From NCBI GenBank assembly GCA_030668825.1, contig DAOVET010000002.1:2571-66570 (forward strand): a DNA stretch of 64,000 nt, given 5' to 3'. Source of the stretch: Candidatus Heimdallarchaeota archaeon (GTDB lineage Archaea; Asgardarchaeota; Heimdallarchaeia; Heimdallarchaeales; Heimdallarchaeaceae). A program made the translations under genes and the position numbers. Position 1 is the stretch's first letter; every line of letters begins with the position of its first letter. Under the pieces are notes generated by a model. That model was given only the letters and a program-made list of their open reading frames with translations, did not search any database and was not told where the DNA came from. Shown piece after piece: positions 7,866 to 47,041 of the stretch.

Positions 7866-7921
7866 AAACAATATTTATATTATGTCTAAACACTATCTAA
7901 GAGTAGACAATTATTGGAGGT
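7866..7921 (+). promoter_or_regulatory. putative promoter (TATA-like 'TTTATATTA' at 7874-7882) and strong RBS (GGAGG at 7916-7920) for the surface-protein gene
   Basis: AT-rich TATA-like element about 45 nt upstream of the ATG at 7927. GGAGG lies 6 nt before the start codon. Confidence 0.35.
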
Positions 7922-7926
7922 CTAAA

Positions 7927-10900: not shown

Positions 10901-11025
10901 CTGATGTATTTACTGGTGGAACACATACTCGAAGAATAGGTTCATACGATATGGTCTTATGGTCAATCAGTGCTATATTTGTTACAGCAGTTGCAACCAG
11001 CATTAGAAAGAAACTTAAAAACTAA
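7927..11025 (+). CDS. large secreted cell-surface glycoprotein (candidate S-layer protein), signal peptide plus C-terminal TM anchor
   Basis: N-terminal signal 'MKNKSIMGSVLLGLTIVLLTLSGSVTQA'. More than 15 N-x-S/T sequons. C-terminus 'MVLWSISAIFVTAVATSIRKKLKN'. Strong RBS, followed by a poly-T terminator. Confidence 0.6.
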   Translation: MKNKSIMGSVLLGLTIVLLTLSGSVTQAQIVSEQSTPHTSAMNLVFVEEMRIIAGIDSAAVIELDLIGGVMPAIDANPLFSAVKNWAFIASNQAGYQDYILRRPFKSPDNATLLLDVDSSLGVDGSLIRAVEIALLFNAAYGTNLMWSRAEALPGSYLYFFTGGMPSTIFSTLIAEYQTDISGGFTSLLDPVEVTASPVKVAFMGRIGLDGLISAARGLYYVDVDAITGASIYTLSTHNIFGVDVAPTHGLLKFSVLKFRFPYTINPLSITPKPGNVAPQITGKMDWDLNAPWFVAKPAMNYEVVYKINHTALTSAPRVSVNMAYDQDMLNNFGRLQMDYVVTNTGTEDAVDIDISYPLGPDFLDFLANKPDLWELRNDVTIDEGYSNTISGNVLITFDGPLFADEVAYPDIVYEQEFLVLEGWYKNNTDGSYVDIDLLNNAQVIKTDSAFYNVPLVGDGTVTTNVTFSSPNGLPNTLVNFATNLLFPIDMPSIMVNIPNVINDYNIKIWEAVQATGDDLFNRLYIRQSIFDPELMDFNFTVREVGRIGSEYAYDEVFLNTTISLLHPGESVNVSWAIDNIPSRDDHYGMMGLAEINVDATYPALQLTTVDKTGYDLMRYLFGVGDAIAPNLGDRFSRPLSYYEPWTKTWLSTGARFAYMDTEGFEYFGFSNGINLQIADDEAVLNVHVSLDNTTYLVGDPVTVYYSIENTGNLPAEKVVLLLFHGRMGADWQIVDSEWFWIDDIGIIAPGTTYYGQADVLANSFLGIHPVYGVAGFKSDVGQTVLSDGVINIAPGLTSIFEGAAETYQLVASNMDWGLVLPKTQNRRPAFPQPVLDIDVNVRFIIPTDAPWELEITITITNIGDERTHITAIQFYNATEMQLLRKITTDGYTANATHLGIGVILFEGITLLPGEDVTFTMRWLFLTSQGCYIPGIIVIYDSRFASDVGNDIVDTAVETDAPLMTALGGSAQDEEDWEDYGESTQTGSSAGADVFTGGTHTRRIGSYDMVLWSISAIFVTAVATSIRKKLKN

Positions 11026-11026
11026 C

Positions 11027-11060
11027 TTTTTCTTTTTTCTTTTTCTTTTATTTTTATTCT
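11027..11060 (+). terminator. poly-T archaeal terminator after the surface-protein gene
   Basis: 'CTTTTTCTTTTTTCTTTTTCTTTTATTTTTATT' immediately after the stop at 11023-11025. Confidence 0.45.
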
Positions 11061-11114
11061 GTAATAGCTTGTTTTAAATAGTGATTTGTCGCTAGATTCC
11101 AAGAGTGGAACTGA

Positions 11115-14105
11115 ATGGCAACTACAGTTGTAACCAATTCAGATTTATATGTTTTTGATAGTCTTATGTTATATAATTTTAAGATGCATAAGTCTACTGA
11201 ATTGTGTCTGTCTGAAGTTCCAATTGTTGTTATTTCAGGTGCCAATGGTAGTGGCAAAACACAGATTTTAGAAGCGCTGATTATGGCTATTGGTCATGTT
11301 CCTACTAGAGTCTCTTTGAGTACGTATAAAGAGATTATAGGCCCCTTTGATAATTACTCTCAAATCCAACTTAAACTGAATAATCCCAAACTTAGTGATA
11401 ACAGAATATTCACAACTTCCGATCCTGATCTCATACCATTTGTCGAGAAAGATTATTTTGTAATCGATGTGAAAATAAATCGTGAAGGTAATATCAGAAG
11501 AAAAGTAATTGATATGAAAGGCAAAGGAATAACCGTTACTAAAAGACAGATTCAGAATTTAATGAAGAACATAGGGATATTCGAGGATACCATGCTTAAT
11601 TTCACTGAAGAAGGATATCTTAGTTCTTTTGCTGATGGTTCTCCTCATAAGAAATTAGATAGTTTATTAGTTGCAACTGGTCTGAAACAAATATTTTCTA
11701 GCTATATTAATTCGAAGAAAAAAGTAGAAGAGAAGGAAAGGGAGCACTCGCCTTTAGTTATGCAATTAGAAAAAGAGGAGAGCAGATTAGAAAGACTTAG
11801 GGAGAACTTTGAAAGGATACAGATGAAAAGAGAACTCATACAACGATATGAGGTTCTTGAAAGAGAACTAGTCTGGTTTAATGCAATTGAAAGTCAAAAT
11901 CAATTTGAGGATGCAAACCAAAACTTAACCAGCAAAAAGAAAGAACTCGAAGAATTGGAAAAGAAACTTAGTATTTCTTCGATTGATCAAGATAATTTAC
12001 GTAAAGAGGTAAGAAAAGCAGAAGAAGAATTAGTAGATAGAAAAACTAGTATGAGGGAATTGTCAGATCAGGAAAATAGGTTGGAAGGTCAGAAGGAAGA
12101 AAAAAATCGAATAGTTCAATCTTCGAAATCTCAGATAGCAAATATCGACTTAAAACTAAGCGAATTTGAGACCATTCAAACAGATGAGGGGTTCTCACAA
12201 AAAAAGCAACTCCAGCAACAACTGGATAAAATTCATACAAGTATTTCACAATTGAACAGTGAGTTGCAATCTAGCCAAATTAATTTAAAAGACAAAGCAA
12301 CTGATGAAGACAAAATAAGACAAAGAATAAATGAAAGATCTCATCTTTATGGAGAACTGTCAGACTATGAGCGGAAATTAATAAAAGATTGTATATTGTA
12401 TAAGGAAAGAATTCAGAATTCAGATTTTAAAGATGAGATAATTGGACCTATATATGAGATCATCTCTATAAAGGAAGGTTTCGAAAATTATACAGATGTT
12501 GTAAAAGCAGCTCTTGGAAGATATCTCTTTGGCTTTGTTGCTACTACTCATGCAGCTTATAAAGAAGCAAAAAGCATTTACGATAAAATTTTCCCAACCT
12601 ATAAACCAAATTTCACAGTAGGGCGAATTTTGGAGGAAGAAAAAGGACCCAAACCTGATTACCTTACCAATCAATCATTGGAGAGTAAACCTGAAGGCAT
12701 AATTGATTTTGCAGTTAATTTAATTGAAGCTCCATTTCAAGTTAAGTTGTATTTGGTTAGGTTTGTAAGAATATTATTAGGCTCTCCATCTTTACCTCCA
12801 AATCTTCTAACAGACTATGCAAAGCAATATAAAACCAACATTTTGACAACAGATTGTAACAGTTTTTATCTTTCTCAAGAAGCATTTTCAAGACCACCAA
12901 GAAGATCCAATGTAAAACTGAGTTTAGATCTCAATAAATACCAGTCAATTGAACGTATAAGAGAACAACTACAATTAGTACAATTTGACATTGAGAAGAT
13001 TACCGAGGATAAGATCAGAATTACTGGAAGTTTAGCTGAATTAGACAACAGAAAGCGAGAGTTAGAGAACCAGTTGAAACCTTGGGAAATGGGAACTGAT
13101 GAAATTGAAAATGAATTTTTCAGGTTACAGCAAATCAAAAGTGCAGCTGAAATCTTAGTTAGAACTGAGACTGAAAACCTTTCTAAACTTGATGTGGAAA
13201 TCAACAAGATCACTCATGATATAGTAGATATTGAAAAGACTGTTACAGTACAACAAAAACAGTATGATGAAATCAGAAAGAAACTTAATCATCTAAATGA
13301 AGAGATTAAAGAACTCTCAGGAAGAAGAGACAAAAATCTAAAATTGATAAGTTTTCTTGAAATAGAAATCTTAGATTTAAAAGAAGCATATGAAAATCTG
13401 AATAAAGAAGCAAAGGAGAAAGGGGAACCTCCTGAAAGTATTCGTTCAGACAAAGAAGAAATAGCCTCCGAATATAATAAAGTTAAAGGACAATTAGAAT
13501 TATTAGAAATTACACCAGAAGTATCACAAGATAGCATCGAAAAACAAGAACAACAAGTAAGCATTTTGCAAGATGAAGTAAAAAATGCTGAAATTCATCT
13601 AAATAATCTTAAAAAAGATTTAGAAAAAAGAATTGATGAATGGGAAGGGGGTCTACATAATATTGTAGACCATCTGAACAAGATGCTGAATTTACTTCTT
13701 CAAGATGTTTTTGTAAATGTATCGATCCAAATTCGAAATTATTATGATGAGAAGTATGCAGGATTACATATTGAAGCTGAAACAAAGGGAGATAATAGAA
13801 AATATAGACAGCTTTCGGGGGGAGAAAAAACACTATTAGCTCAAGCAATCATTTTAGCTCTTCACATGATAAATCACTCACCAATTCATGCAATAGATGA
13901 ATTTACTCAAAAACTTGATAAGCGAAACAAAGCACTTGCTTTTTCCATGGCTTTAGCAACTTATAAAATCTCGAAGGAGAATAGGATAATTACTCCTCAA
14001 TTTATTCTTATAACTCCCTCTCTTGATGATGTAGAACTCTCTGAAGAGTTTACTCACAAAGTATTGATTGAGAGTAAAGTAAAACCTCATGAGGTGAAAA
14101 CATGA
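11115..14105 (+). CDS. smc: SMC (structural maintenance of chromosomes) ATPase, short-armed (996 aa)
   Basis: N-terminal Walker A 'LYNFKMHKST...VISGANGSGKTQILEALIMAIG'. Central hinge 'IIGPIYEIISIKEGFENYTDVVKAALGRYLFGFVATTHAAYKEAKSIY'. C-terminal signature 'RQLSGGEKTLLAQAIILALH...IHAIDEFTQKLD'. Long coiled coils. A canonical-looking start is also possible at 11166. Confidence 0.8.
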   Translation: MATTVVTNSDLYVFDSLMLYNFKMHKSTELCLSEVPIVVISGANGSGKTQILEALIMAIGHVPTRVSLSTYKEIIGPFDNYSQIQLKLNNPKLSDNRIFTTSDPDLIPFVEKDYFVIDVKINREGNIRRKVIDMKGKGITVTKRQIQNLMKNIGIFEDTMLNFTEEGYLSSFADGSPHKKLDSLLVATGLKQIFSSYINSKKKVEEKEREHSPLVMQLEKEESRLERLRENFERIQMKRELIQRYEVLERELVWFNAIESQNQFEDANQNLTSKKKELEELEKKLSISSIDQDNLRKEVRKAEEELVDRKTSMRELSDQENRLEGQKEEKNRIVQSSKSQIANIDLKLSEFETIQTDEGFSQKKQLQQQLDKIHTSISQLNSELQSSQINLKDKATDEDKIRQRINERSHLYGELSDYERKLIKDCILYKERIQNSDFKDEIIGPIYEIISIKEGFENYTDVVKAALGRYLFGFVATTHAAYKEAKSIYDKIFPTYKPNFTVGRILEEEKGPKPDYLTNQSLESKPEGIIDFAVNLIEAPFQVKLYLVRFVRILLGSPSLPPNLLTDYAKQYKTNILTTDCNSFYLSQEAFSRPPRRSNVKLSLDLNKYQSIERIREQLQLVQFDIEKITEDKIRITGSLAELDNRKRELENQLKPWEMGTDEIENEFFRLQQIKSAAEILVRTETENLSKLDVEINKITHDIVDIEKTVTVQQKQYDEIRKKLNHLNEEIKELSGRRDKNLKLISFLEIEILDLKEAYENLNKEAKEKGEPPESIRSDKEEIASEYNKVKGQLELLEITPEVSQDSIEKQEQQVSILQDEVKNAEIHLNNLKKDLEKRIDEWEGGLHNIVDHLNKMLNLLLQDVFVNVSIQIRNYYDEKYAGLHIEAETKGDNRKYRQLSGGEKTLLAQAIILALHMINHSPIHAIDEFTQKLDKRNKALAFSMALATYKISKENRIITPQFILITPSLDDVELSEEFTHKVLIESKVKPHEVKT

Positions 14106-14872
14106 CTGATCAAGATATTCTAGATGAAAGTTCTGATACAATTTCAGTCTACATTGAAGAAAATAGAGAATGGGTTGAGAACATATTTCAACTAGTTTTT
14201 GAGCTCAAGAGGAAATATGGTAGATCGATAAGAAAGAAAGAAATTGTGAGACTTCTAGAATCAGAGGAAGATCGGTCTAAAGTTTCTGATGCTTATCTAT
14301 ATTTACAGAACAAAAAAGAAAGCCTTCTGGATTCTGCTCTTTATGAAGATTTTATCAAAATGAATGATTTGAGAGAAAATGATTTTCTAGAACAGCTGCT
14401 TTATCCTCAAGAAAGGTTGAAAACCTTTGCAGACAAAGTAAGAAGTTTATGTGTTCCAATAACTTATTTCTCAGGAACAACTCAAACATCTTATGAAGAA
14501 CCATTAAATGCTCTAACAGAAGAAATCATTGAATTGGAATCAATTGAAAATATTGAACTTTTTGTGAAAAAATACCAGAACTTCTTTAAGAAATTAACAA
14601 CTAATTTTATAGATAAAGGTGAAATTTTGAATATTGAAAATATAATTAAAGACAAACTGATAGGTAAAAAAATCAAAAAGGTGAAGATTAACGAACTTTT
14701 GACATCTTTAGAAGCAGAGATTTTATCTAAAATGATAAGTGAGAAAAAGATTCATGTCATTTTAGAGAATGATGTACTGATTTTTCAAACTGAAATAAAG
14801 GATGAGGAATCTGATGGTGTCTCAAGTTCAGTTCTCCTCTCACCTAAGAACCCCAAAGTAGAGCGTGACTAA
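14102..14872 (+). CDS. scpA: putative kleisin ScpA (256 aa), called from operon position
   Basis: ATGA overlap with the smc stop. It is followed 2 nt later by a clear ScpB. The size fits ScpA. No strong sequence motif recognised. Confidence 0.45.
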   Translation: MTDQDILDESSDTISVYIEENREWVENIFQLVFELKRKYGRSIRKKEIVRLLESEEDRSKVSDAYLYLQNKKESLLDSALYEDFIKMNDLRENDFLEQLLYPQERLKTFADKVRSLCVPITYFSGTTQTSYEEPLNALTEEIIELESIENIELFVKKYQNFFKKLTTNFIDKGEILNIENIIKDKLIGKKIKKVKINELLTSLEAEILSKMISEKKIHVILENDVLIFQTEIKDEESDGVSSSVLLSPKNPKVERD

Positions 14873-14874
14873 TA

Positions 14875-15480
14875 ATGGAAGAAAACCATCTGGATCAATC
14901 CATTGATTCAAATGAGATTGCTGAAGAAAATAATTTCTTACCTTCTTCTATTTCAGATGAAGAAAAAGGAGAACTATTTAGAGAGTTAACTACAATTTTA
15001 TCTAGAAAATGGATAAAAGATAAAGTGACTGTTTTTGGTTGTTCTGAACTTGATTTATTATTGGCAACACGTTTTGATGTTCAAACCTTACGTGAAACAA
15101 TTGATGAATACAAAGCATTTGTTCAAATTTTAGGACTAAATGTAATTGATTATGACATGGATGGTGAAAAGTGGTACTGCTTAAGATCCTCTCATTACGC
15201 GCCTTCTGATTTACAATCTCCTGAATTAATAGTATTGGGGACTATAATTGCTTATCTTGAAAGTGATAAACAAAAACCAATAACTACAGAGAGGATTAAA
15301 GAAAAATTGGTGGTCACTGGCAGGATGAAGGAATACCTAGTTGATAATAGTTTGAGGAAATTAACAAGACTCGGATATTTCAAGAAGCAACAGAACGAAT
15401 GGGAATATAATTATCGGACCTACATAGAGTTTGGTGATGAGGAGAGAAAAAAAATTGTAGAGGAGTTCAGAAGGATTTGA
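14875..15480 (+). CDS. scpB: ScpB (segregation and condensation protein B)
   Basis: 'SPELIVLGTIIAYLESDKQKPITTERIKEKL...LVDNSLRKLTRLGYFKK...YRTYIEFG' matches the ScpB winged-helix pattern (LETLAIIAY.QPiTr.eIe.iRGV...L...GLi.....Y.TT..FLe.FGL). Confidence 0.7.
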   Translation: MEENHLDQSIDSNEIAEENNFLPSSISDEEKGELFRELTTILSRKWIKDKVTVFGCSELDLLLATRFDVQTLRETIDEYKAFVQILGLNVIDYDMDGEKWYCLRSSHYAPSDLQSPELIVLGTIIAYLESDKQKPITTERIKEKLVVTGRMKEYLVDNSLRKLTRLGYFKKQQNEWEYNYRTYIEFGDEERKKIVEEFRRI

Positions 15481-15929
15481 ATGAACAAGAAGCAATCTAT
15501 TGCTATATTCGTTGTACTTTCTGTAATCAGATGAAAACTCTAAGAGATGCTGCACTAGAAGGGTGGGAAGTTTGTGATAGATGTCAATTAGTATTTTGTA
15601 ATGAATGTAAGAAAAACACTGAAGAAGAATTCTGTCCAGGGTCTGTCTATACTACAAAACATACTGCTAGTTTTGGACTTCTTCCAATAGAACAAATTAT
15701 TGAAACAGCAAACAATATAGAGAAACAACCTAAGGAAAGCAAGTTTATTTCTAAGATATTTTTTGAAAAAGAAAAAAAGAAAATTGAAATACTCAAAAGT
15801 AACAAGAAGAAAAAGGAACCAGCTGATTTTAGTATCGTAAGATTTCGGGAAGAACAGTGGAGAAAATTTGGTACTGTTTTAGTCAAAAGGAAAGATGGTA
15901 AATTTCTAACTTGGGGTCAATTAGAATAA
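15477..15929 (+). CDS. Cys-rich zinc-finger protein (150 aa) with Lys-rich tail, last gene of the smc-scpAB operon
   Basis: TTG start overlapping the scpB stop (TTGA). Eight Cys in 'CYIRCTFC-x16-CDRC-x4-CNEC-x8-C'. Basic 'EKEKKKIEILKSNKKKKE' tail. Confidence 0.5.
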   Translation: MNEQEAIYCYIRCTFCNQMKTLRDAALEGWEVCDRCQLVFCNECKKNTEEEFCPGSVYTTKHTASFGLLPIEQIIETANNIEKQPKESKFISKIFFEKEKKKIEILKSNKKKKEPADFSIVRFREEQWRKFGTVLVKRKDGKFLTWGQLE

Positions 15930-15958: not shown

Positions 15959-18862
15959 TTATATCCCTGTAATTGCTTCTGCTCGAGAGCCTAGTATTAC
16001 ATTTGTTATGAAGAGACTAGTTATTTGCAATAACATTAGAAGTACTCCTATAGCACAGAAAATTTGGAATTTTAAAGGATTCCATGCCATATACCATGTT
16101 ATTGTTCCAGCTTTTGATGAGAATATCAAAAATATCGTCGTAGAGACTTCTGATAGACAATATAAGAAGGAAACCAGCGAACCAGCGAATATATTGAGGG
16201 AAATTAATGGTATAGTAATCCTTGAAAAAGTTCTCATTCTAGAAGCACCTAAATTGATGGAAGCTTCTTCTAAAACTACATCCACTTGTTGTAAACCCGC
16301 ATACGCTGATCGTACCGTAAATGGTATTTTTCTTATTGTATAGCTCATTATTAGCAGCGTTACTGCAACCCCAATGAATGGATCTAACTTCAATCCTGCT
16401 GTGATGTTGGCCATCATTTTGTTGAACCATGAAGGGTTCCTAGATGCTATACCACTCCAATCAAAAGTTCGATAATAACCAATGGCTAAGACAATACCTG
16501 GGATTGCAATAGGTAATGTTACAAGTGCATCTAAAATCTTCTTCCCTCTAAACTCCTTTCTGGCTACAACATACGCGGCAACTGAACCAATTACGATAAT
16601 TAAAAGTGTAGCAAGGACACTATAAACTAGCGTGTTAATTATATACGGTGGTATATCATACGTTGAAGATACAAATATCACTTTATAGTTTTCACCCGTG
16701 AAAGCTAGATCTGAGGGTTTCGTACCTCCAAGCGTTTCCATAAACGACATCAGGATGACTCCTGTATGCACCAATAATGAGAATGCAAATAGTATGATCA
16801 AAAATGGATAGATGTATAATAACTTCCATTTAGCTTTAGACATCCTGTATTGTCCTGCTCTACCTTTACTTACCATTGCATATGTTCGTAAAGATACATA
16901 CTTCCGGATCGCAAAGAACCCAATAAGTGCAATAATAAGGAGTATACCTCCTAATACACAGACCTCCGGCTTAATCTCTGCAGCTCCTGCTTTCTTGTAT
17001 TCTGAAAATACATAGTAAGGTAGAAATTTACTAGCAGCTGTATCTCCCATTGCTGTGAAGATGATTGGGGTTCCTACATCTTCCATAGAAAGAATCAAAA
17101 CTAATATAGCTCCAGCCCCGATTCCTGGCATAGCCAATGGCAAAGTAACAGTGGAGAATAAACGAAATTTTCCTGCTCCAAGATTCTCTGCTGATTCTTC
17201 CATGCTTGGATCTATGTTCAAGAAGGATGAAAAAGCATTGAGATAAACTAAAGCATAGAAATGAGATGTTTGAACAAACACAATAGCAAACAGCCCTGAG
17301 AAGATTAGCTTTGTTTGGAATGCTGGAATTAAGAAGAAGTTATTTAGAAATCCGTTAGGTCCTAGAATTAACCTGAAACCCATTCCTGATATGAACGGTG
17401 GTATAATGAGAGGAGCAAGTGCTAGTAAACTTACAAGTCTTTTTCCAGGAAATTCATACCTTGCTAAAACGAAAGCCAATGCTGTACCAAGTATTACTGA
17501 AAAAATAGTAGTCAAGATTCCAAGAATAATAGTGTTAAGAACCACACCATGATCTTTTCCACTTAAAGTTATAACAGTAATTTCTATAGTATCTTCATAT
17601 TCTGCGATCAGAGGTAATTCAATTAAAACTTGAGACATATCTAGGATTTGAGTACCACCTTTTAGTTGAGAGAGGAAAATGCGGTTTGTTGTAGTATCAA
17701 TGAAAATATCTGCTGTTTTATACACAACTGTATAATAGCTGTTGATGCTTACAAGATTTGATGGATCAGTAATGTCAAAAATTCGAACACCAAGATCATT
17801 CAAAGAGAAATCAAAAGAGACAAAGTAACCATAATTGTTTACAATCTGAACATCGTATAATTTACCAACAACAGTTTCGTCATAATACTCAACAAGTGTC
17901 ATATTTAATGGGTCTGTAATGTTGAAAATACCTAAACCATCATTTCCTAAGGTGATGTAAGCTAAATCTCCAACTATATCTATATCTTGTGCCCCCATAG
18001 TCCCATTTTCTGGATCATGAATAATATGATATAACTGTGCGTCAGTATACTCTGCTAACAGTAAAGGATTTTCTGGATCAGAAATGTCAAAGATTTTAAC
18101 TCCTGTTGTGAAACCTACAACATAGACAAGGTCATTATTAATAACAATATCAAATACATCTGTATCAATGGTTACATTAGATAGAATGGTTGGATTTATT
18201 GGGTTTGAAACATCAATTATTGCGAAACCCTTTCCATTGATATCTAGAATAGCTAAATTGTTTTCAACAGCGATAAAATCAGTAGTATCTGCTATATCAT
18301 ACATATGACACATAGGTGCAAAGCTTTCTCGAACATTAGAAATGTTAAAAATTACCAATCCACCTCTACCTGCAGCAGTGTATAATAGGTCATCTTTTAC
18401 AACTAATTCATTGAAACTACTAATTTCTTCGTAATACTGCCTTATTTCCGTAGTCTCATTATGTTGCGAGACATCTAGAATCTCTATACCTTCGCTTCTT
18501 TCAGCAACAAACGCAATATTATTATCAACAGCAATTGCTTCTGCTGGACCTCCATAATCTTGTTTATCCTTTGAAAAGAAATGGGTTTGATTATCTCCTG
18601 GGAAATTGAAGAATAAAGTTTTAGTAAAGACATTAGCTATAGGGGCACCAGACCACTGACCATTGAAATAAACAGCACCAGATAGAACCGAGAATAGTGG
18701 GATTACCATCCACACAATAAAAACAAAAGACACAAGGACGATGATGAAATTTGTCGAAGGTTCTCGTAATAGTTTAACATAAAGAAAATTAATTAATGAT
18801 CTTCTCTTTTTGCCCTTTCCCTCTTCACTTGTTTTTTTACTAGAGCTAGCCATTTTATTCAA
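15959..18862 (-). CDS. ABC transporter permease (two-domain, Fe3+/thiamine-type) fused to N-terminal extracellular LVIVD-repeat beta-propeller
   Basis: N-terminal basic cytoplasmic stretch plus TM, then repeated 'G(L/F/V)xIF(N/D)ISxPxNP' LVIVD-like units (GLVIFNISNV, GFAIIDVSNPINP, GVKIFDISDPENP, GLGIFNITDPLNM, GVRIFDITDPSNL). The C-terminal approximately 540 aa hold two BPD-type permease domains with about 12 TM helices. Confidence 0.7.
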   Translation of the reverse strand: MNKMASSSKKTSEEGKGKKRRSLINFLYVKLLREPSTNFIIVLVSFVFIVWMVIPLFSVLSGAVYFNGQWSGAPIANVFTKTLFFNFPGDNQTHFFSKDKQDYGGPAEAIAVDNNIAFVAERSEGIEILDVSQHNETTEIRQYYEEISSFNELVVKDDLLYTAAGRGGLVIFNISNVRESFAPMCHMYDIADTTDFIAVENNLAILDINGKGFAIIDVSNPINPTILSNVTIDTDVFDIVINNDLVYVVGFTTGVKIFDISDPENPLLLAEYTDAQLYHIIHDPENGTMGAQDIDIVGDLAYITLGNDGLGIFNITDPLNMTLVEYYDETVVGKLYDVQIVNNYGYFVSFDFSLNDLGVRIFDITDPSNLVSINSYYTVVYKTADIFIDTTTNRIFLSQLKGGTQILDMSQVLIELPLIAEYEDTIEITVITLSGKDHGVVLNTIILGILTTIFSVILGTALAFVLARYEFPGKRLVSLLALAPLIIPPFISGMGFRLILGPNGFLNNFFLIPAFQTKLIFSGLFAIVFVQTSHFYALVYLNAFSSFLNIDPSMEESAENLGAGKFRLFSTVTLPLAMPGIGAGAILVLILSMEDVGTPIIFTAMGDTAASKFLPYYVFSEYKKAGAAEIKPEVCVLGGILLIIALIGFFAIRKYVSLRTYAMVSKGRAGQYRMSKAKWKLLYIYPFLIILFAFSLLVHTGVILMSFMETLGGTKPSDLAFTGENYKVIFVSSTYDIPPYIINTLVYSVLATLLIIVIGSVAAYVVARKEFRGKKILDALVTLPIAIPGIVLAIGYYRTFDWSGIASRNPSWFNKMMANITAGLKLDPFIGVAVTLLIMSYTIRKIPFTVRSAYAGLQQVDVVLEEASINLGASRMRTFSRITIPLISLNIFAGSLVSFLYCLSEVSTTIFLIFSSKAGTITWYMAWNPLKFQIFCAIGVLLMLLQITSLFITNVILGSRAEAITGI

Positions 18863-19020
18863 CCAAATTTGGTTAGATAGAGATGTAATATCTTAATGCT
18901 TTTTGAATTTTATCCCTATTTTTAAAAAATATGAAAGAAATATGAAAACATAAATAAATAATTATCTTCTGAATAAGTAATTGAAACACAAAAAAAAGAA
19001 AAAAAGAAAATTAGCAGTAT

Positions 19021-20514
19021 TTACTTCTTCTTTCTCCTAAGTAAAACCATTGTAGCCACAAAAATTGATGTAATGAAGACAGGGATCATACCAAAAGCAT
19101 TTGTCGTTTCTGTTTCTGGAATCAAAATCCCAAGTATAGTATTATACTTTGTTTGAGCAAAATTTCTCCATTCTCCATCTTTTATTGCAGAAAAAGTTGC
19201 ATTCAATTGATATTGCGTATTCCAGTCTATAGATTCCTGCAAGGTCATTCCCGGTACTCCGAGATCTTCTATTAGTTCATTGAAGAATGTACTATTAATT
19301 TCACCATCTCTTAATTGTGTTACCATCTCACCCCAAGTATTTCTTAGCAGGGTGTGAAGTTGTTCAATTGTATTGTGGAAATAGTAAATGGTTGTAGCTA
19401 AGTTAGAAGTAGCAAGATCTTCGTCGAAGTCTATACCTACATTATCCAGTGTTTCATTGAATAGTAAGTATAAATCAGGTCTTAATTGTCCATCTGGGGT
19501 GTGAAAAGCATCTTCATTAACTGGTAATCGGTCTATACCTTCAGTTAACCAGATAGCTTGACCTTCTGGAGTATTTACGTATGTTAGAAACGCTGCAGCA
19601 GCATCATAGTCATCAACATTGATACCCATAGCGATAGGATCACCATTGACAATTGATTGACCTTGTGGGATTATGTACTCACAATCAAGATTCTCTCCCA
19701 TGGCTATTATTCCATAAAAGTCGATTGTCATAGCAATTCCCACTTCACCACTAACTACAGCAGCCCTTGTAGCTACTGATCCAGGATACATTCCTGAATT
19801 AGCACCCATTCTTGTCAGAATCGACCATCCTACATCCCAACCAAATGCTTGGAGGATAATTTGGTAAATTCTTGTATTGGATGTGGTTAAAGGTGGATCA
19901 CCCATACTAATAGCTTTAACACTAGGACTGATGTAATAAATTGGACTGGCTAATTCTTCCCAAGTTTTTGGTACTGGAAGAGCATGAGTGGTTAAGAAAT
20001 CATGATTAACAGTAAAACCAAAAGAAGAGATAGCATTTGCTGCCCAAACAAGACTTCCATTTGGTGCAAACGACTTCATACTTGCACCTGCTAATTCAGC
20101 AGGAACACTGTCGTTTATTGCTGTAAATAAAGCAGCATCAGTTACAGGATCAATGTGTTTTAACAAACCCCAATTATCCATAGTGTTGAACAAAGCTGGT
20201 CCACCACCCCATGCAAGATCCACAGATTTCGAAGGATCCTCTAGAAGTTTCTTCCATCCGGCATCTGTTGAAGCTTGTCTGAAATCAAATGAAGTAACAC
20301 CTAATGCAATCGCTTCTGGAGTCGCTAAGAAAGCAGCTTGAAATGCGTTTGTTAGAGTTGTATCATGTCGAGTAACAATGGTTAAGGTAACTGCATTAAG
20401 CTCTGGATTTGATGAGTTAGCAGTATCAACTTCAGCGTTAATCATAAAAACGGCTGAACCCATTGATATCGATGCAATTAAGAAAACTAGAATAGCTATT
20501 CTTTTTATATTCAT
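19021..20514 (-). CDS. ABC transporter extracellular solute-binding protein (family 1-like) with C-terminal TM anchor
   Basis: Signal/TM 'MNIKRIAILVFLIASISMGSAVF'. Periplasmic-binding-protein-like body. C-terminus 'TNAFGMIPVFITSIFVATMVLLRRKKK'. It lies directly upstream of the permease. Poly-T run downstream. Confidence 0.6.
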   Translation of the reverse strand: MNIKRIAILVFLIASISMGSAVFMINAEVDTANSSNPELNAVTLTIVTRHDTTLTNAFQAAFLATPEAIALGVTSFDFRQASTDAGWKKLLEDPSKSVDLAWGGGPALFNTMDNWGLLKHIDPVTDAALFTAINDSVPAELAGASMKSFAPNGSLVWAANAISSFGFTVNHDFLTTHALPVPKTWEELASPIYYISPSVKAISMGDPPLTTSNTRIYQIILQAFGWDVGWSILTRMGANSGMYPGSVATRAAVVSGEVGIAMTIDFYGIIAMGENLDCEYIIPQGQSIVNGDPIAMGINVDDYDAAAAFLTYVNTPEGQAIWLTEGIDRLPVNEDAFHTPDGQLRPDLYLLFNETLDNVGIDFDEDLATSNLATTIYYFHNTIEQLHTLLRNTWGEMVTQLRDGEINSTFFNELIEDLGVPGMTLQESIDWNTQYQLNATFSAIKDGEWRNFAQTKYNTILGILIPETETTNAFGMIPVFITSIFVATMVLLRRKKK

Positions 20515-20706
20515 TTTATAATCAACCTTCTTATTGATATCTAATAATATCAAATAATTATCTAGCATTCAGACTATAAAGTTTTTGCACTATTGATAAA
20601 AATGGTTTTTTAAGAAAAGCAATATGTAATAAATTCTTAACAATAGAAATAGCAATAAATTAACAATTATTACCAAAGAAATATAGCGCCCACAATTTTG
20701 ACATCT

Positions 20707-21180
20707 ATGGGAGTAGATTTTTCTACTTTAACTCCTGCATTTGATGGTGGAGCACAAACTGGAATCCCTTTCTGGGGTTTCGAAGACAATGATGTACCCG
20801 TTATCAAATTAGCTTCCTACAAATATCTTGACGGTCAATTTCAAGAATTAACTGAAGAAACTAAGATTGCAGATGTTTTCAATATTAGTTTATCAACTTT
20901 TGATTGGTGTAACGAATTAGTAGGTGAACTAGAAGTTGAAGGTCTAATTTTTGAATCTATAAATTCAAAATGGTCAAATGTCTGGTTTTCTAATATTGAT
21001 CTAACAGAGCTAAAAAATGGAGAAAAAACTTTTCATTTCACAGTAACTGATCCATTTGGAAATATCGGAACTTATGATATAACAACCAATTTAAAACAAG
21101 CCTCAATATCGACATGGCTCTCAATTACAGTTTTTCTTGTAATTGTAACTTATCTCGTTCTAAAACGAAGAAAAAAATAA
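20707..21180 (+). CDS. small C-terminally anchored protein lacking an N-terminal signal peptide (possible gene remnant)
   Basis: Begins 'MGVDFSTLTPAFDGG' with no hydrophobic N-terminus. Ends 'ISTWLSITVFLVIVTYLVLKRRKK'. Confidence 0.4.
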   Translation: MGVDFSTLTPAFDGGAQTGIPFWGFEDNDVPVIKLASYKYLDGQFQELTEETKIADVFNISLSTFDWCNELVGELEVEGLIFESINSKWSNVWFSNIDLTELKNGEKTFHFTVTDPFGNIGTYDITTNLKQASISTWLSITVFLVIVTYLVLKRRKK

Positions 21181-23099: not shown

Positions 23100-24113
23100 A
23101 TGAAAAGAAAATATATTTTCAGTTTAATTCTAATTGTGGGAATGATTACCGGCATGACAACAACAAATGCATATACTACTACACTTGATTTCACTGGTGT
23201 AACAATCGCATTTGATATCTCTCATGGAGGTTATCACACAACAGAAGCAGACTTAGCTCCCATAATAGGTAATTTAACAGCTGCAGGTAACACAGTTATC
23301 TACATTAATGAAACTTGGGGAATACCCGATAATGTAGCCGCTTTATTCCTAACACAATCAGACGACAATTATACAGCTGCTGAACGAGCAGATATTAAAA
23401 CTTGGTTTGAATTAGGAGATAAATTACTCTGGGTAGCTGGAGACTCTGATTTTGGTGGTTACTACAATCCATGGTCAATAAATCAAGTTCTTGGAACCTT
23501 AGGTGCTATAGTCAGAATGGCTGGTGTTTCAATTGAAGATTCAGTATACCACGATGGGTCAGCCTATCGTACTGCTCCAAATCAAATTGGTTATGGAAAT
23601 GCATTATATGATGATTTAGCTGTCGAACTTACAACTGGTATGACTGCTGGTATAATCGCACATGGTCCAACTGCAATTATGGCATGGAATGGATTTGATT
23701 ACAGAGATCTAAGATTAGGAAAATCAGTCTTTCCACTAAAAGTTAATGTGATTATGACTTACAGTGAAAACGCAACTGCTATTGATTCAGATACTAGCGA
23801 GGGCGTTTTAGACATATATGCTGGAACAACTGGAGGACTCTACCCAGCTGTTGTACATGAAAACATGACTGATGTTGGAAGTCACATAATCGCTACAAGT
23901 GAAGCTATCTATACAAACTACAAGTTTATGTATGGACAAAACACCGAAAATGGCGTATACAATAATGGTACTCACTATGGTCAAATGTTAGTTAATAACA
24001 TCCTCAACTACTTCGTAGTTGAACCAGAAGAACCAACCAAAACCAATGCATTTGCTCTAATTCCATTAGCTGCAATTGGTGTAATTTACGCTATTTCCCG
24101 CAGAAAGAAATAA
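23100..24113 (+). CDS. secreted protein with signal peptide and C-terminal TM plus RRKK anchor
   Basis: 'MKRKYIFSLILIVGMITGMTTTNA' signal. C-terminus 'TKTNAFALIPLAAIGVIYAISRRKK'. Followed by a poly-T terminator. Confidence 0.5.
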   Translation: MKRKYIFSLILIVGMITGMTTTNAYTTTLDFTGVTIAFDISHGGYHTTEADLAPIIGNLTAAGNTVIYINETWGIPDNVAALFLTQSDDNYTAAERADIKTWFELGDKLLWVAGDSDFGGYYNPWSINQVLGTLGAIVRMAGVSIEDSVYHDGSAYRTAPNQIGYGNALYDDLAVELTTGMTAGIIAHGPTAIMAWNGFDYRDLRLGKSVFPLKVNVIMTYSENATAIDSDTSEGVLDIYAGTTGGLYPAVVHENMTDVGSHIIATSEAIYTNYKFMYGQNTENGVYNNGTHYGQMLVNNILNYFVVEPEEPTKTNAFALIPLAAIGVIYAISRRKK

Positions 24114-46546: not shown

Positions 46547-47041
46547 AGAATTCTTGTAGACAATCAAGAAATTCTTCATTATACTGAAAATCAACTGGCT
46601 GATTACAGATGTAAAACTGTAGGTTTAATCTATCAGTCTTACAATTTAGCGCAGTTCTTGACTGTCAAAGAAAATATAGAGTTTCCAATGTTATTGGCAA
46701 AAACACCACTAGAAAAAAGAGAAAAACGTATTGAAGAGCTAACAGAATTTCTAGAAATTAGTAGATACATTGAGCAAAAACCTGAATTCTTGAGTGGAGG
46801 GGAACAACAACGAGTTGCGATTGCTATTGCCTTAGCAAATAATCCTCCAATAATATTAGCTGATGAGCCTACAGGTAATATTGATGTAGAAACAGCAGAA
46901 ACAGTTTACACCAATTTATCTCATATGTGCCAAATCTATAACACAACTCTTGTGATAGCCTCACATGATCCAAAAGCCTCAGAATATACAGAAAGAGAGG
47001 TAATTCTAACAGAATTAGAATCCAATAAGATAAGAAGGTGA
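46547..47041 (+). pseudogene. 5'-truncated ABC transporter ATP-binding protein (MacB/LolD-like), lacking Walker A
   Basis: The frame opens after a TGA at 46544-46546 and reads '[47 protein letters not shown]...[32 protein letters not shown]...SHD'. Q-loop, signature, Walker B and H-loop are present. There is no P-loop and no ATG. Confidence 0.55.

What the first reader, a model, noticed from the sequence alone, without database searches (positions are those of the whole stretch)
15959..20514. ABC importer whose permease carries an extracellular LVIVD beta-propeller, with no ATPase gene
The two-domain permease (Fe3+/thiamine-type) is preceded, within the same ORF, by a TM helix and about 370 aa of LVIVD-type repeats that would face outside the cell. 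The cognate solute-binding protein is membrane-anchored by a C-terminal TM plus RRKKK. No ATPase gene is in the operon. The next gene downstream is the convergent zinc-finger gene of the smc operon. A beta-propeller on the permease could dock the anchored SBP or bind a surface polymer. I do not recognise this architecture as described.
Basis: partly seen in the sequence, partly recalled or inferred. Interest (0 to 1): 0.55.

Follow-up and report, generated by a model that had tools for sequence, protein, structure and literature searches.

The report
Propeller-bearing ABC importer lacking its ATPase
In one family of Heimdall (Asgard) archaea, an otherwise ordinary nutrient-uptake pump has a seven-bladed beta-propeller inserted into an outward-facing loop of its membrane subunit and no longer has its ATPase (motor) gene next to it; this combination appears undescribed and its purpose is unknown.

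Summary
ORF 15959..18862(-) is one uninterrupted gene, probably starting at the ATG at 18853 (964 aa). It encodes a 12-TM, two-domain type I ABC importer permease with both EAA coupling loops intact. A confidently modelled seven-bladed LVIVD propeller (aa ~96-433) sits between TM1 and TM2, on the outside by positive-inside rule and EAA-loop parity. It is an insertion into the tip of the ancestral 50-75 aa loop-1 hairpin, not an N-terminal add-on.

The upstream gene encodes an FbpA/AfuA/P5PA-type binding protein with a signal peptide and a C-terminal TM plus RRKKK anchor.

Comparing 80+ Asgard loci:
- Unfused orthologues (other Heimdall, Thor, Loki, Hermod) are always SBP-permease-ATPase: 54/54.
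- The propeller form is a monophyletic Heimdallarchaeota clade, including two complete Ca. Heimdallarchaeum genomes, and never has an ATPase within ±10 kb: 0/28.
- The ATPase-docking motifs are unchanged, so an ATPase encoded elsewhere is inferred but was not found.

The propeller evolves much faster than the membrane domains (about 0.4 vs 0.76 pairwise identity). It has no conserved His, Lys or Cys and is very acidic, so it is probably a non-catalytic binding module. Whether it docks the binding protein or captures something external is undecided.

Verdict: new variant of a known kind, moderate interest.

The parts
15959..18862 (-). Propeller-bearing two-domain ABC importer permease gene. The ORF starts at TTG 18862; the probable start is ATG 18853, giving 964 aa. 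The stop codon is 15959..15961.
   Evidence: One ORF. Pfam LVIVD plus 2x BPD_transp_1. NCBIfam matches to ModB/WtpB/CysT/PhnU2-like halves at aa 433-660 and 741-957, all below the equivalog cut-offs. 100% identical to P0001 (964 aa).
18677..18862 (-). Basic cytoplasmic N-tail and TM1 (aa 1-62).
   Evidence: 9 K/R against 2 D/E before the helix; hydropathy peak of 2.97 at aa 39-57. TM1 is also present in unfused orthologues.
18578..18676 (-). N-flank of the ancestral loop 1 (AVYFNG...FFNFPGD...), kept from the unfused form.
   Evidence: Aligns with 'AVYFHGRVSLEVFGDVFSDPKFFDPS...GGGP' of unfused L033 and L039.
17564..18577 (-). Seven-bladed LVIVD beta-propeller ectodomain (aa ~96-433). The last strand (EITVITL) is the returning strand of the ancestral hairpin.
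16898..17557 (-). Permease half 1 core (TM2-TM6, aa 436-655).
   Evidence: BPD_transp_1 and ModB-like matches. Query residue 440 aligns with residue 73 of A. fulgidus ModB 2onk_C, which I read as TM2 of that permease; the TM numbering is from my own knowledge, not a tool result. Mean pairwise identity 0.78 in the clade.
17138..17206 (-). EAA coupling loop 1 (SMEESAENLGAGKFRLFSTVTLP).
   Evidence: Invariant E555, E556, A558, E559, N560, L561, G562, A563. The same motif occurs in unfused orthologues that carry an operon ATPase.
16805..16897 (-). Basic cytoplasmic linker between the two permease halves (aa 656-686).
   Evidence: 9 K/R and 0 D/E in loop 653-686.
15962..16804 (-). Permease half 2 (TM7-TM12, aa 687-967), with the conserved C-tail ...GSRAEAITGI.
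   Evidence: BPD_transp_1 best stretch at aa 756-957. C-tail conserved across fused and unfused forms.
16208..16273 (-). EAA coupling loop 2 (LEEASINLGASRMRTFSRITIP).
19021..20514 (-). Cognate substrate-binding protein (497 aa from ATG 20514; the ORF is open back to 20568). It belongs to the FbpA/AfuA/P5PA structural cluster and has an ~100-aa helical C-terminal extension.
   Evidence: SBP_bac_8 and SBP_bac_6. AF2 pLDDT 91. Foldseek top hits are P5PA, the G6P-binding VcA0625, AfuA and FbpA, with TM-score 0.74-0.81 normalised to the target. Profile against PDB sequences: P5PA at 7.7e-14. Adjacent to the permease in every orthologous locus.
20434..20514 (-). SBP signal peptide (MNIKRIAILVFLIASISMGSAVFMINA).
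   Evidence: Read from the sequence.
19024..19098 (-). SBP C-terminal anchor (AFGMIPVFITSIFVATMVLL plus RRKKK).
   Evidence: Weak, sub-threshold match to the NCBIfam Loki-CTERM sorting domain (14.3 bits against a cut-off of 19.9).
18863..19020 (-). SBP-permease intergenic region. It has a T-rich tract just after the SBP stop and a TTTAAAAATA-like element upstream of the permease start.
   Evidence: Read from the sequence. Calling these a terminator and a promoter is inference only.
20707..21180 (+). Remnant (C-terminal 157 aa with membrane anchor) of the Sulfatase/Phosphodiest-family gene that lies divergent from the SBP gene in most fused loci.
   Evidence: phmmer E=1.3e-32 to the intact 515-aa L001 gene, which is Sulfatase/Phosphodiest by Pfam. 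Clean 1107-nt deletion relative to L007 7083-8189.
23100..24113 (+). Anchored surface protein with a weak DUF4350 match. Its homologues neighbour this transporter in both fused and unfused Asgard loci.
   Evidence: Pfam DUF4350 E=0.003. Homologues found in 66 ORFs across fused and unfused loci.

Best explanation
**What it is (shown)**
This is the Heimdallarchaeaceae-type version of an ABC importer found across the Asgard archaea. The ancestral operon is SBP, then a fused two-domain permease, then a PotA/CysA/MalK-class ATPase with a TOBE domain. On the stem of one Heimdall clade two changes are seen:
- A seven-bladed LVIVD propeller of about 330 aa was inserted into the tip of the small beta-hairpin in the first extracellular loop (between TM1 and TM2).
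- The ATPase gene disappeared from the operon.

**How it most likely works (inferred)**
1. The binding protein is exported and tethered to the outside of the membrane by its C-terminal helix. It captures a small anionic solute, probably a phosphorylated organic compound.
2. It delivers the solute to the 12-TM permease.
3. The two unchanged EAA loops and the C-tail engage a dimer of an ATPase encoded elsewhere in the genome, which powers import. This would resemble the shared ATPases MsmK and FhuC.

**The propeller (inferred)**
- It stands on a two-stranded stalk beside the SBP docking site.
- It is a non-catalytic binding module.
- The blades next to the stalk (1 and 7) carry the only conserved charged residues: E121, E127, E139, D385, D389, D408 and D424. 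They probably pack against the transporter or the SBP.
- The fast-evolving, very acidic outer blades probably face the environment and bind a variable external partner, such as a polymer, an envelope component or another cell's surface. That would place the importer at the source of its substrate.

**Likelihood**
- Architecture and evolutionary history: above 0.9.
- An ATPase supplied in trans: about 0.75.
- The propeller is a non-catalytic binding module: about 0.7.
- Its main role is external capture rather than SBP docking: about 0.35-0.4.
For: - **Fusion and topology:**
- **Insertion point:** loop 1 is 50-75 aa in unfused orthologues and 370-390 aa (about 500 in some) in fused ones. Both flanks are retained.
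- **Operon comparison:** an adjacent ABC_tran+TOBE_2 ATPase is present in 54/54 unfused loci and 0/28 fused loci.
- **Evolutionary history:** the fused clade is monophyletic and sister to unfused Heimdall orthologues.
- **ATPase docking retained:** the EAA loops and C-tail are conserved in both forms.
- **Still under selection:** TMD identity is 0.76 in the fused clade against 0.65-0.70 in the unfused clades, at similar SBP divergence.
- **Cognate ATPase not relocated nearby in sequence space:** among the best 120 hits (45% identity or more) none is named Heimdallarchaeaceae. All 7 sampled contexts are canonical operons.
- **Propeller properties:** blade identity is 0.30-0.46. There is no invariant His, Lys or Cys. 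Its nearest sequence relatives are large multidomain surface proteins carrying Beta_propel, T9SS-sorting and PKD domains. Some clade members have an extra domain of about 110 aa.
- **SBP class:**
- **Phosphoesterase neighbours:** Sulfatase/Phosphodiest next to fused operons; Exo_endo_phos, PAP2 and S1-P1 next to unfused ones.
- **Precedent for shared ATPases:** PMC4519317 and PMC10147376.
Against: - No partner ATPase was identified, because the genomes could not be searched outside ±10 kb or the 64 kb window.
- The propeller gain and the ATPase loss map to a single branch. Their perfect association is one evolutionary event, not a replicated correlation.
- No ligand or partner for the propeller is known.
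- The AF2 model is poor for the membrane domains (pTM 0.49). The position of the propeller relative to the SBP docking site is therefore not modelled.
- Fold searches return only generic propellers.
- The substrate class rests on remote similarity (15-19% identity) and on gene neighbourhood.
- The neighbouring sulfatase-like gene is deleted in this very genome, so it is not essential to the system.
Confidence: 0.45

Rival explanations
1. **SBP-docking platform (works like the MalF P2 loop).** The propeller's main job is to hold or orient the membrane-tethered binding protein at the mouth of the transporter through the transport cycle.
For: - The domain is a large extracytoplasmic insertion in a permease loop next to where SBPs dock. 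The precedent is the MalF P2 loop, an Ig-like domain that binds MalE with micromolar affinity throughout the cycle (PMC6906923).
- Propellers are common protein-protein interaction platforms.
- A conserved acidic cluster lies on blades 1 and 7, next to the stalk.
- The SBP gene is always adjacent.
Against: - Unfused Heimdall orthologues use the same C-terminally anchored SBP without any propeller.
- SBPs of the fused clade have no clade-specific indels.
- The propeller (identity about 0.4) evolves faster than the SBP (0.60).
- Both proteins are strongly acidic, -39 and -31, so there is no charge complementarity.
- Some lineages add a further domain between TM1 and the propeller.
Confidence: 0.28
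2. **Extracellular enzyme fused to the importer.** The propeller is a hydrolase, for example a phosphoesterase like the LVIVD-type propeller phosphotriesterase Sb-PTE. It would make the transported solute right at the transporter.
For: - The propeller profile gives a weak hit to Sphingobium Sb-PTE (5hrm, E=0.0086) through LVIVD-like motifs. Sb-PTE also appears in the Foldseek list.
- Sb-PTE is a seven-bladed propeller with a binuclear metal centre (Mabanglo et al. 2016, title cited in PMC11656708).
- The SBP class and the phosphoesterase neighbours fit an organophosphate theme.
Against: - No His, Lys or Cys is invariant or nearly invariant anywhere in the ectodomain across 35 sequences. The only conserved polar residues are 3 Glu and 4 Asp on two adjacent blades.
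- Overall conservation is low (0.30-0.46).
- The match to Sb-PTE covers only 83 residues of repeat motif.
Confidence: 0.08
3. **No longer an ATP-driven importer.** After losing its ATPase gene, the SBP-permease pair was repurposed as a receptor, an anchor or a passive channel, or it is decaying.
For: - There is no ATPase within ±10 kb in any of 28 fused loci, nor in the 64 kb window.
- No close orthologue of the operon ATPase attributable to this clade was seen.
- The neighbouring sulfatase-like gene is decaying in this genome.
Against: - Both EAA loops and the cytoplasmic C-tail are invariant, and identical in type to those of orthologues that have an operon ATPase.
- The TMDs are the most conserved part of the protein (0.75-0.78) and are at least as conserved as in unfused clades.
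- The ORF is intact in 25+ genomes.
- Importers that borrow an ATPase encoded elsewhere are well documented.
Confidence: 0.1
4. **Envelope spacer or anchor.** The propeller binds the S-layer or another envelope component and only positions or stabilises the transporter, with no role in substrate acquisition.
For: - LVIVD and YVTN-type propellers occur in archaeal surface-layer proteins (PMC2447325; 1l0q).
- The domain is highly acidic and variable, like other exposed envelope proteins of this organism.
Against: Nothing specific. It cannot be told apart from the best explanation with the available data, and it overlaps with it, since an 'external partner' could be an envelope component.
Confidence: 0.09

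Closest known systems
Two-domain type I ABC importer permeases of the Fe3+/thiamine/2-AEP group (FbpB/ThiP/PhnU2; COG1178), with the ModB/CysT/PotC-like core fold
   Same: - Two BPD_transp_1 halves in one chain.
- 6+6 TM segments.
- An EAA loop in each half.
- A cognate FbpA-cluster SBP encoded upstream.
- Best solved sequence relatives are ModB 2onk_C, PotC, PotB and an iron ABC permease, 9j4r.
   Different: - A ~330-aa beta-propeller sits in extracellular loop 1.
- There is no ATPase gene in the operon.
- All NCBIfam equivalog scores are far below their cut-offs (for example PhnU2 at 122 against 593), so this is not a member of any named substrate-specific family.
Unfused Asgard orthologues (Thor-, Loki-, Hermod- and other Heimdallarchaeota): SBP-permease-ATPase operons
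   Same: - Orthologous SBP (38-41% identity) and TMDs (45-50% identity).
- The same EAA loops and C-tail.
- The same DUF4350-like neighbour.
- The same loop-1 flanks.
   Different: - Loop 1 is only 50-75 aa.
- An ABC_tran+TOBE_2 ATPase gene always follows the permease.
- In Thor, Loki and Hermod the SBP is anchored by an N-terminal TM instead of a C-terminal one.
MalF P2 loop of the E. coli maltose importer
   Same: A large folded extracytoplasmic domain inserted in a permease loop of a type I importer. It projects about 3 nm above the membrane and contacts the SBP (PMC6906923).
   Different: - P2 is an Ig-like domain of about 180 aa between TM3 and TM4 of an 8-TM subunit.
- Here the domain is a 7-bladed propeller between TM1 and TM2.
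- SBP binding is not shown here.
Importers energised by an ATPase encoded elsewhere (MsmK, MsiK, FhuC-type sharing)
   Same: The SBP and permease genes lack an ATPase gene, while the coupling motifs are kept (PMC4519317 and PMC10147376).
   Different: - Those cases are bacterial sugar or siderophore/haem systems with an identified multitask ATPase.
- Here the ATPase is unidentified.
- Its loss from the operon coincides with the gain of an ectodomain.
LVIVD-repeat (PF08309) cell-surface propellers, including the Sb-PTE phosphotriesterase (5hrm)
   Same: - The same repeat family (16/16 members).
- A seven-bladed fold.
- An extracellular setting (PMC2447325).
- A weak profile match to Sb-PTE.
   Different: - Those are soluble or anchored stand-alone proteins, often with PKD or T9SS domains.
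- None is known inside a transporter subunit.
- No conserved His-type metal centre is present here.
BtuG-type propeller lids on TonB-dependent transporters (8ptd)
   Same: A surface-exposed seven-bladed propeller that captures ligand for a transporter. It appears in the Foldseek list.
   Different: - BtuG is a separate lipoprotein on an outer-membrane barrel.
- Sequence identity is 13%, so the similarity is generic to the fold only.

Membership tests
Type I ABC importer permease (BPD_transp_1) | Pfam BPD_transp_1 above the gathering score, present in both halves | tested here: met
   57.9 bits against a cut-off of 26.4, in 2 stretches. ModB/CysT/PotC-like matches for aa 433-660 and 741-957.
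Type I ABC importer permease (BPD_transp_1) | EAA-x3-G coupling motif in a cytoplasmic loop of each half | tested here: met
   EESAENLGA (aa 555-563) and LEEASxNLGA (aa 864-873) are invariant in 35 sequences. Cytoplasmic parity follows from hydropathy and charge.
Type I ABC importer permease (BPD_transp_1) | Cognate substrate-binding protein | tested here: met
   An SBP_bac_8/6 gene lies directly upstream here and in every orthologous locus.
Type I ABC importer permease (BPD_transp_1) | Partner ABC ATPase (NBD) | tested here: not met
   None within ±10 kb in 28 fused loci or in the 64 kb window. The only match is a Walker-A-less fragment at 46547..47041. Presence elsewhere in the genome could not be tested.
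LVIVD-repeat beta-propeller (PF08309) | Pfam LVIVD above the gathering score | tested here: met
   56.8 bits (whole protein) and 67.4 bits (ectodomain) against a cut-off of 20.2. 16/16 clade members match.
LVIVD-repeat beta-propeller (PF08309) | Beta-propeller fold built from 4-stranded blades | tested here: met
LVIVD-repeat beta-propeller (PF08309) | Extracellular location | tested here: met
   Positive-inside rule and EAA-loop parity; the loop has 16 K/R against 56 D/E. This is a prediction only, with no experimental topology.
MalF-P2-like SBP-docking loop | Direct binding of the loop domain to the SBP | not testable with these tools
   No multimer modelling was available. The indirect indicators are neutral to negative.
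MalF-P2-like SBP-docking loop | Ig-like fold between TM3 and TM4 of an 8-TM MalF-type subunit | tested here: not met
   Here it is a propeller between TM1 and TM2 of a 6+6 TM protein.
Sb-PTE-type propeller phosphotriesterase | Conserved binuclear metal-centre ligands (His-rich) | tested here: not met
   No invariant or nearly invariant His, Lys or Cys in the ectodomain. The sequence match is E=0.0086 over 83 residues only. That the Sb-PTE centre is His-rich rests on my own knowledge of amidohydrolase-type binuclear centres, not on a tool result.
FbpA/AfuA/P5PA cluster of substrate-binding proteins | Family sequence signature and two-lobe class II fold | tested here: met
   SBP_bac_8 at 56.6 bits and SBP_bac_6 at 38.7 bits, both above cut-off. 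AF2 pLDDT 91. Foldseek TM-score 0.74-0.81 (normalised to the target) to P5PA, VcA0625, AfuA and FbpA.
FbpA/AfuA/P5PA cluster of substrate-binding proteins | Identity of the ligand (Fe3+ versus phosphorylated organic compound) | tested here: inconclusive
   The best sequence relatives are the phospho-ligand binders P5PA, VcA0625 and AfuA. Their DPxSSGT segment aligns with GDPPxTTSNT here. PhnS2 scores 33 bits against a cut-off of 393. No ligand test was possible.
Shared-ATPase importers (MsmK/MsiK-like) | A multitask ATPase encoded elsewhere that serves several permease pairs | not testable with these tools
   The genomes could not be scanned beyond the fetched loci.
Loki-CTERM / Heimdall-CTERM sorting signal (NCBIfam NF033507, NF045529) | C-terminal domain model above its cut-off | tested here: inconclusive
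   The SBP tail scores 14.3 bits against 19.9 (Loki-CTERM). Another protein in the window scores 14.6 against 24 (Heimdall-CTERM). These are sub-threshold matches to very short models.

The most novel reading that the evidence does not exclude
The propeller turns the importer itself into a surface receptor. It would bind a polymeric or cell-associated source of organophosphate, or dock extracellular phosphoesterases. Candidate sources are extracellular DNA, envelope polymers or a partner cell's surface. Hydrolysis products would then be released directly at the tethered SBP and imported, a substrate-channelling uptake machine unknown among ABC importers. In parallel, Heimdallarchaeaceae would have moved to a shared, centrally encoded ATPase for several importers.
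Probability: 0.2. Interest if true: 0.7.

Novelty: new variant of a known kind. Interest (0 to 1): 0.5.

Why it matters
Type I ABC importers are among the best-understood transporters. Apart from fused SBP domains and the MalF P2 loop, their membrane subunits are not known to carry large folded ectodomains.

This case has four useful properties:
- The propeller is stably inherited across 25+ genomes, including two closed genomes.
- It is under purifying selection.
- It sits inside a permease loop.
- Close natural controls exist: orthologues without the propeller and with the ATPase.

It therefore allows a clean test of what an ectodomain adds to binding-protein-dependent uptake. It also asks how an importer is energised once its dedicated ATPase gene is gone.

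The hosts are Heimdallarchaeia, the archaeal lineage closest to eukaryotes, whose cell-surface biology and nutrient exchange with partners are largely unknown. Any surface-recognition role would be of wider interest. If the propeller is only a docking aid or a spacer, the finding is a modest architectural curiosity.

Tried and rejected
**1. Looking for the ATPase**
- Motif and phmmer scans of the window and all fused loci found nothing intact.
- The window's ABC_tran fragment at 46547..47041 is a Walker-A-less remnant with a MacB/LolD-type 'ADEPTGNID' Walker B. It is not the PotA/CysA type of the cognate ATPase.
- I used the unfused L033 ATPase as a query against 5.8 billion proteins and sampled 7 contexts. 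All were canonical operons, and no orphan orthologue appeared.
- The 232-240-aa gene downstream of the permease in some loci is the size of an ATPase. It turned out to be a DUF92-related membrane protein.
- The adjacent SMC-like ATPase (ABC-type head) was considered as a motor and rejected as implausible. Its proximity reflects region-wide synteny, and the transporter segment is inverted in some genomes.

**2. Getting function from fold**
- The afdb50 library was unavailable.

**3. Enzyme hypothesis**
- There is a weak Sb-PTE match, but no conserved His, Lys or Cys.

**4. SBP-docking indicators**
- No fused-clade-specific indels in the SBP.
- No charge complementarity.

**5. Structure of the full permease**
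- The TMDs were modelled poorly (pLDDT <50-70, pTM 0.49), so the model cannot be used to place the propeller.

**6. Literature**
- No paper links LVIVD domains to ABC permeases.
- A search on Heimdallarchaeia ABC transporters found nothing specific.

**7. Artefact explanations**
- A frameshift, a missed gene boundary or a misassembly are all rejected. The ORF is intact and collinear in independent MAGs and in two closed genomes.

Full report
**1. What is in the window**

Gene and domains:
- Coordinates 15959..18862(-) hold one uninterrupted ORF of 967 aa, starting at TTG.
- An ATG three codons in (18853) gives 964 aa. This matches database protein P0001 exactly and matches the N-termini of all relatives.
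- Pfam finds LVIVD (56.8 bits, cut-off 20.2) and two BPD_transp_1 stretches (57.9 bits, cut-off 26.4).
- NCBIfam matches ModB/WtpB/CysT/PotC-like models twice (aa 433-660 and 741-957), and also the two-domain PhnU2 and ThiP models. All are far below the equivalog cut-offs.

Topology. A hydropathy and charge analysis gives 12 TM segments: 39-60; then 440-466, 476-494, 519-541, 572-596, 634-652; then 687-708, 749-767, 776-794, 820-840, 882-914, 934-952.
- The N-tail is basic (9 K/R against 2 D/E).
- The inter-half linker is basic (9 K/R, 0 D/E).
- The 382-aa segment between TM1 and TM2 is very acidic (16 K/R against 56 D/E).
- Both EAA loops (SMEESAENLGAG... at 553-575, LEEASINLGAS... at 864-885) then fall on the cytoplasmic side. 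The large segment is therefore outside.

Propeller fold:
- AlphaFold2 on an alignment of 35 clade members models aa 70-440 confidently (pLDDT 80-92) as about 30 beta-strands.
- The membrane part is poorly modelled (pTM 0.49).
- Reading the sequence gives seven LVIVD-type repeats.

Binding protein:
- The upstream gene (19021..20514, open to 20568) is an SBP_bac_8/SBP_bac_6 binding protein.
- It has a signal peptide and a C-terminal hydrophobic helix followed by RRKKK.

ATPase:
- No intact ABC ATPase is present in the operon or anywhere in the 64 kb.
- The only ABC_tran match is a fragment at 46547..47041. It has the Q-loop, signature, Walker B and H-loop but no Walker A, and the upstream frames are closed.

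**2. It is an insertion into loop 1, and it is conserved in a clade**

Distribution:
- The protein search found about 50 clusters with the same LVIVD+BPD_transp_1 architecture, at 50-100% identity and 955-1105 aa. Where named, all come from Heimdallarchaeota or Heimdallarchaeaceae.
- A scan of one genome per species found the fused form in 25 genomes (L007-L031). These include the closed genomes of Ca. Heimdallarchaeum endolithica and Ca. H. aukensis.
- The same scan found 55 unfused orthologues that match only aa ~430-967 at 40-50% identity. They come from other Heimdallarchaeota and from Hermod-, Thor- and Promethearchaeota.

The insertion:
- In the unfused proteins, TM1 is present and the TM1-TM2 loop is 50-75 aa. 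In the fused ones the loop is 370-390 aa, or about 500 aa in a subset.
- Both flanks of the ancestral loop are kept. Compare 'AVYFHGRVSLEVFGDVFSDPKFFDPS...EGGGP|TVITTSGFDFGIILNT' (L033) with 'AVYFNGQWSGAPIANVFTKTLFFNFPGD...YGGP|[propeller]|EITVITLSGKDHGVVLNT' (window).
- The propeller thus sits in the turn of a small hairpin, on a two-stranded stalk.
- Alignment to A. fulgidus ModB agrees: query residue 440 corresponds to chain residue 73, which I read as TM2 of that permease (the TM numbering is my own knowledge).
- The 'TM helix in front' is therefore the permease's own TM1.

Phylogeny:
- A neighbour-joining tree of the membrane domains makes the fused proteins monophyletic. Their sister group is the unfused Heimdall orthologues.

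**3. The ATPase gene**

- In the unfused loci the gene after the permease is a 360-410-aa ABC_tran+TOBE_2 ATPase.
- Using the L033 ATPase as a phmmer query, an adjacent ATPase is present in 54 of 54 unfused loci that have at least 1.2 kb downstream. It is present in 0 of 28 fused loci, and no ATPase-like ORF occurs anywhere in those ±8-10 kb loci.
- The association is perfect, but it maps to one branch, so it counts as one event.
- The ATPase-docking elements are unchanged. Both EAA loops and the C-terminal 'R..A.TGI' tail are conserved alike in fused and unfused proteins.
- Within the fused clade the membrane domains are the most conserved part, at 0.75-0.78 mean pairwise identity. That is at least as high as in the unfused clades (0.65-0.70) at comparable SBP divergence.
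- This argues for a working transporter that still binds an NBD dimer.
- A search with the L033 ATPase returned orthologues down to about 45% identity. None is named Heimdallarchaeaceae, whereas such names were frequent among the permease and SBP hits.
- All seven contexts I sampled were canonical SBP-permease-ATPase operons.
- No genome appears in both the fused and the unfused locus sets. Only the best 80 of 275 matches were kept, so this is indicative only.
- My inference is that the dedicated ATPase gene was lost and an ATPase from another system serves the permease. This happens with MsmK and FhuC in bacteria (PMC4519317, PMC10147376).
- I could not identify that ATPase.

**4. The binding protein and the likely substrate class**

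Orthology and anchoring:
- The SBPs of fused and unfused loci are orthologous and the same size (470-510 aa).
- The Heimdall ones, fused and unfused alike, have a signal peptide plus a C-terminal anchor. The Thor, Loki and Hermod ones have an N-terminal anchor.
- The anchor is therefore unrelated to the propeller.
- The same kind of tail ends at least six other secreted proteins in the window. It gives sub-threshold matches to NCBIfam's Loki-CTERM and Heimdall-CTERM models.

Structure and relatives:
- The AF2 model of the SBP is good (pLDDT 91).
- Its best structural matches are P5PA (pyridoxal-phosphate binding), VcA0625 and AfuA (sugar-phosphate binding), STM0429 and the ferric FbpA group, with TM-scores 0.74-0.81 normalised to the target.
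- By profile against PDB sequences the phospho-ligand binders come first (P5PA at 7.7e-14). Their DPxSSGT segment aligns with GDPPxTTSNT here.

Neighbours:
- A Sulfatase/Phosphodiest gene lies divergent from the SBP in most fused loci.
- Exo_endo_phos, PAP2 or S1-P1-type genes lie near several unfused operons.

Reading:
- A small phosphorylated, or at least anionic, organic solute is the best guess. Fe3+ is not excluded.
- In this window the sulfatase-like gene is reduced to its last 157 codons by a clean 1107-nt deletion relative to the close relative L007. It cannot be essential to the transporter.

**5. What the propeller might do**

Facts:
- Its nearest sequence relatives are large multidomain surface proteins carrying Beta_propel, T9SS-sorting, PKD and CARDB domains. 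The best hit is from Heimdallarchaeota.
- It evolves much faster than the rest of the system. Blades are at 0.30-0.46 identity, against 0.60 for the SBP and 0.76 for the TMDs.
- Conserved positions are mostly Gly and hydrophobic. The only conserved charged residues are E121, E127 and E139 (blade 1) and D385, D389, D408 and D424 (blade 7), which are the blades next to the stalk. No His, Lys or Cys is conserved.
- Its net charge is -39, or -10.5 per 100 aa. Other secreted proteins of the window are at -5.6 to -7.1 per 100 aa, and the SBP is also acidic at -31.
- A subset of the clade carries a further domain of about 110 aa between TM1 and the propeller. By its motifs it looks like a PPC-type beta-sandwich (my own reading), but it has no Pfam match.
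- A propeller-only profile hits the Sphingobium phosphotriesterase Sb-PTE only weakly (E=0.0086), through LVIVD-like motifs.

Reading:
- A catalytic role is unlikely.
- The domain is a binding module with a conserved base and a variable, exposed remainder.
- SBP docking in the manner of the MalF P2 loop (PMC6906923) is possible from the geometry. It gets no support from the SBP sequences (no clade-specific indels) or from charge, and unfused relatives with the same anchored SBP do without a propeller.
- I therefore rank 'external capture or attachment module, with some incidental contact to the SBP or transporter through blades 1 and 7' slightly above 'dedicated SBP dock'. The evidence does not separate the two.

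**6. Comparison with what is known, and novelty**

- The components are known kinds: a type I importer permease, an FbpA-cluster SBP and an LVIVD propeller.
- The combination is not described in the literature I could search. That combination is a folded propeller inside loop 1 of the permease, conserved across a family-level clade, together with loss of the operon ATPase.
- The sequences themselves are already in public databases, annotated only as 'ABC transporter permease subunit', or wrongly as WtpB.
- Other FbpB-like permeases with different N-terminal extracytoplasmic extensions exist in bacteria (P0077, P0080). Appended ectodomains may therefore be a recurrent, unstudied theme in this permease family.
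- I class this as a new variant of a known kind. The interest is moderate (0.5): it offers clean natural controls and sits in an interesting lineage, but there is no functional evidence yet.

Noticed in passing
window 46547..47041 (+): Remnant of an ABC ATPase gene. It matches Pfam ABC_tran profile positions 42-136 only. The Q-loop, LSGGEQQR signature, Walker B '[11 protein letters not shown]' and H-loop are present, but there is no Walker A and the upstream frames are full of stops. It is the MacB/LolD/FtsE type, not the type that serves this importer.
   Followed up: partly
window 20707..21180 (+); L007 7083-8189: The 157-aa ORF between the SBP gene and the transglutaminase-like gene is the C-terminal remnant of a 515-aa anchored Sulfatase/Phosphodiest-family gene. 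That gene is intact in more distant relatives (L001). A clean 1107-nt deletion relative to L007 removed the catalytic part, and L014 shares the deletion. In L007 the gene is already split into 381-aa and 157-aa ORFs.
   Followed up: yes
window 7882..11025, 19021..20568, 20707..21180, 23100..24113, 39950..41803, 48819..50483, 57668..60580: Seven secreted proteins end in a hydrophobic helix plus an R/K-rich tail. They include a CARDB protein, two SBPs, a beta-helix/NosD protein and a subtilase. Two of the tails give sub-threshold matches to NCBIfam Loki-CTERM and Heimdall-CTERM sorting-domain models. This may be a lineage-specific sorting signal rather than a plain anchor.
   Followed up: partly
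window 39950..41803 (+), next to 37744..39909 (+): An orphan, C-terminally anchored SBP_bac_5 binding protein sits directly after a heavy-metal P-type ATPase (HMA + E1-E2_ATPase). No ABC permease or ATPase gene is nearby. It is a second example of scattered ABC components in this genome.
   Followed up: no
window 23100..24113 (+); e.g. L087 9243-10490, L088 11706 (-), L039 350 (+): An anchored surface protein of 330-415 aa (weak DUF4350 match) is a neighbour of this transporter in fused loci and in many unfused Asgard loci. It may be a functional partner of the system.
   Followed up: partly
L005/L006 8001-11234, L023, L028, L029 (proteins P0034, P0036, P0039, P0044-46): A subset of the fused clade (1077-1105 aa) has an extra domain of about 110 aa between TM1 and the propeller. 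It has 'DFDLSLWD' and 'GxWxVxVxxxxGxGxFxIxV' motifs reminiscent of PPC-type beta-sandwiches, but no Pfam match. These sequences are not monophyletic in the NJ tree.
   Followed up: partly
L087, L088, L090, L035, L092, L093 (unfused operons): Secreted Exo_endo_phos-family genes of about 590 aa recur within a few kb of the unfused SBP-permease-ATPase operons. PAP2 and S1-P1/PLC-type genes also occur. This points to uptake of a phosphoester hydrolysis product.
   Followed up: partly
proteins P0080 (1128 aa) and P0077 (738 aa): Distant FbpB-like two-domain permeases carry other large N-terminal extensions predicted to be extracytoplasmic. One is a ~520-aa helical domain between two extra TM helices and the other is a ~150-aa domain after an N-terminal TM. 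Neither has a Pfam match. Appended ectodomains may be recurrent in this permease family.
   Followed up: partly
window 7882..15929 (+) and the equivalent regions of L001, L002, L005: The transporter always lies between a five-gene block and a transglutaminase-like gene. The block is a CARDB surface protein, a ~1000-aa SMC_N/AAA_15 ATPase, two small proteins and a Cys-rich 150-aa protein. The SBP-permease segment is inverted in some genomes. I read this as regional synteny, not as a functional link.
   Followed up: partly
window 18863..19020 (-): The SBP-permease spacer has a long T-rich tract right after the SBP stop and a TTTAAAAATA-like element about 60 nt before the permease start. This would fit partial termination plus an internal promoter (excess SBP over permease). 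It was not tested.
   Followed up: no
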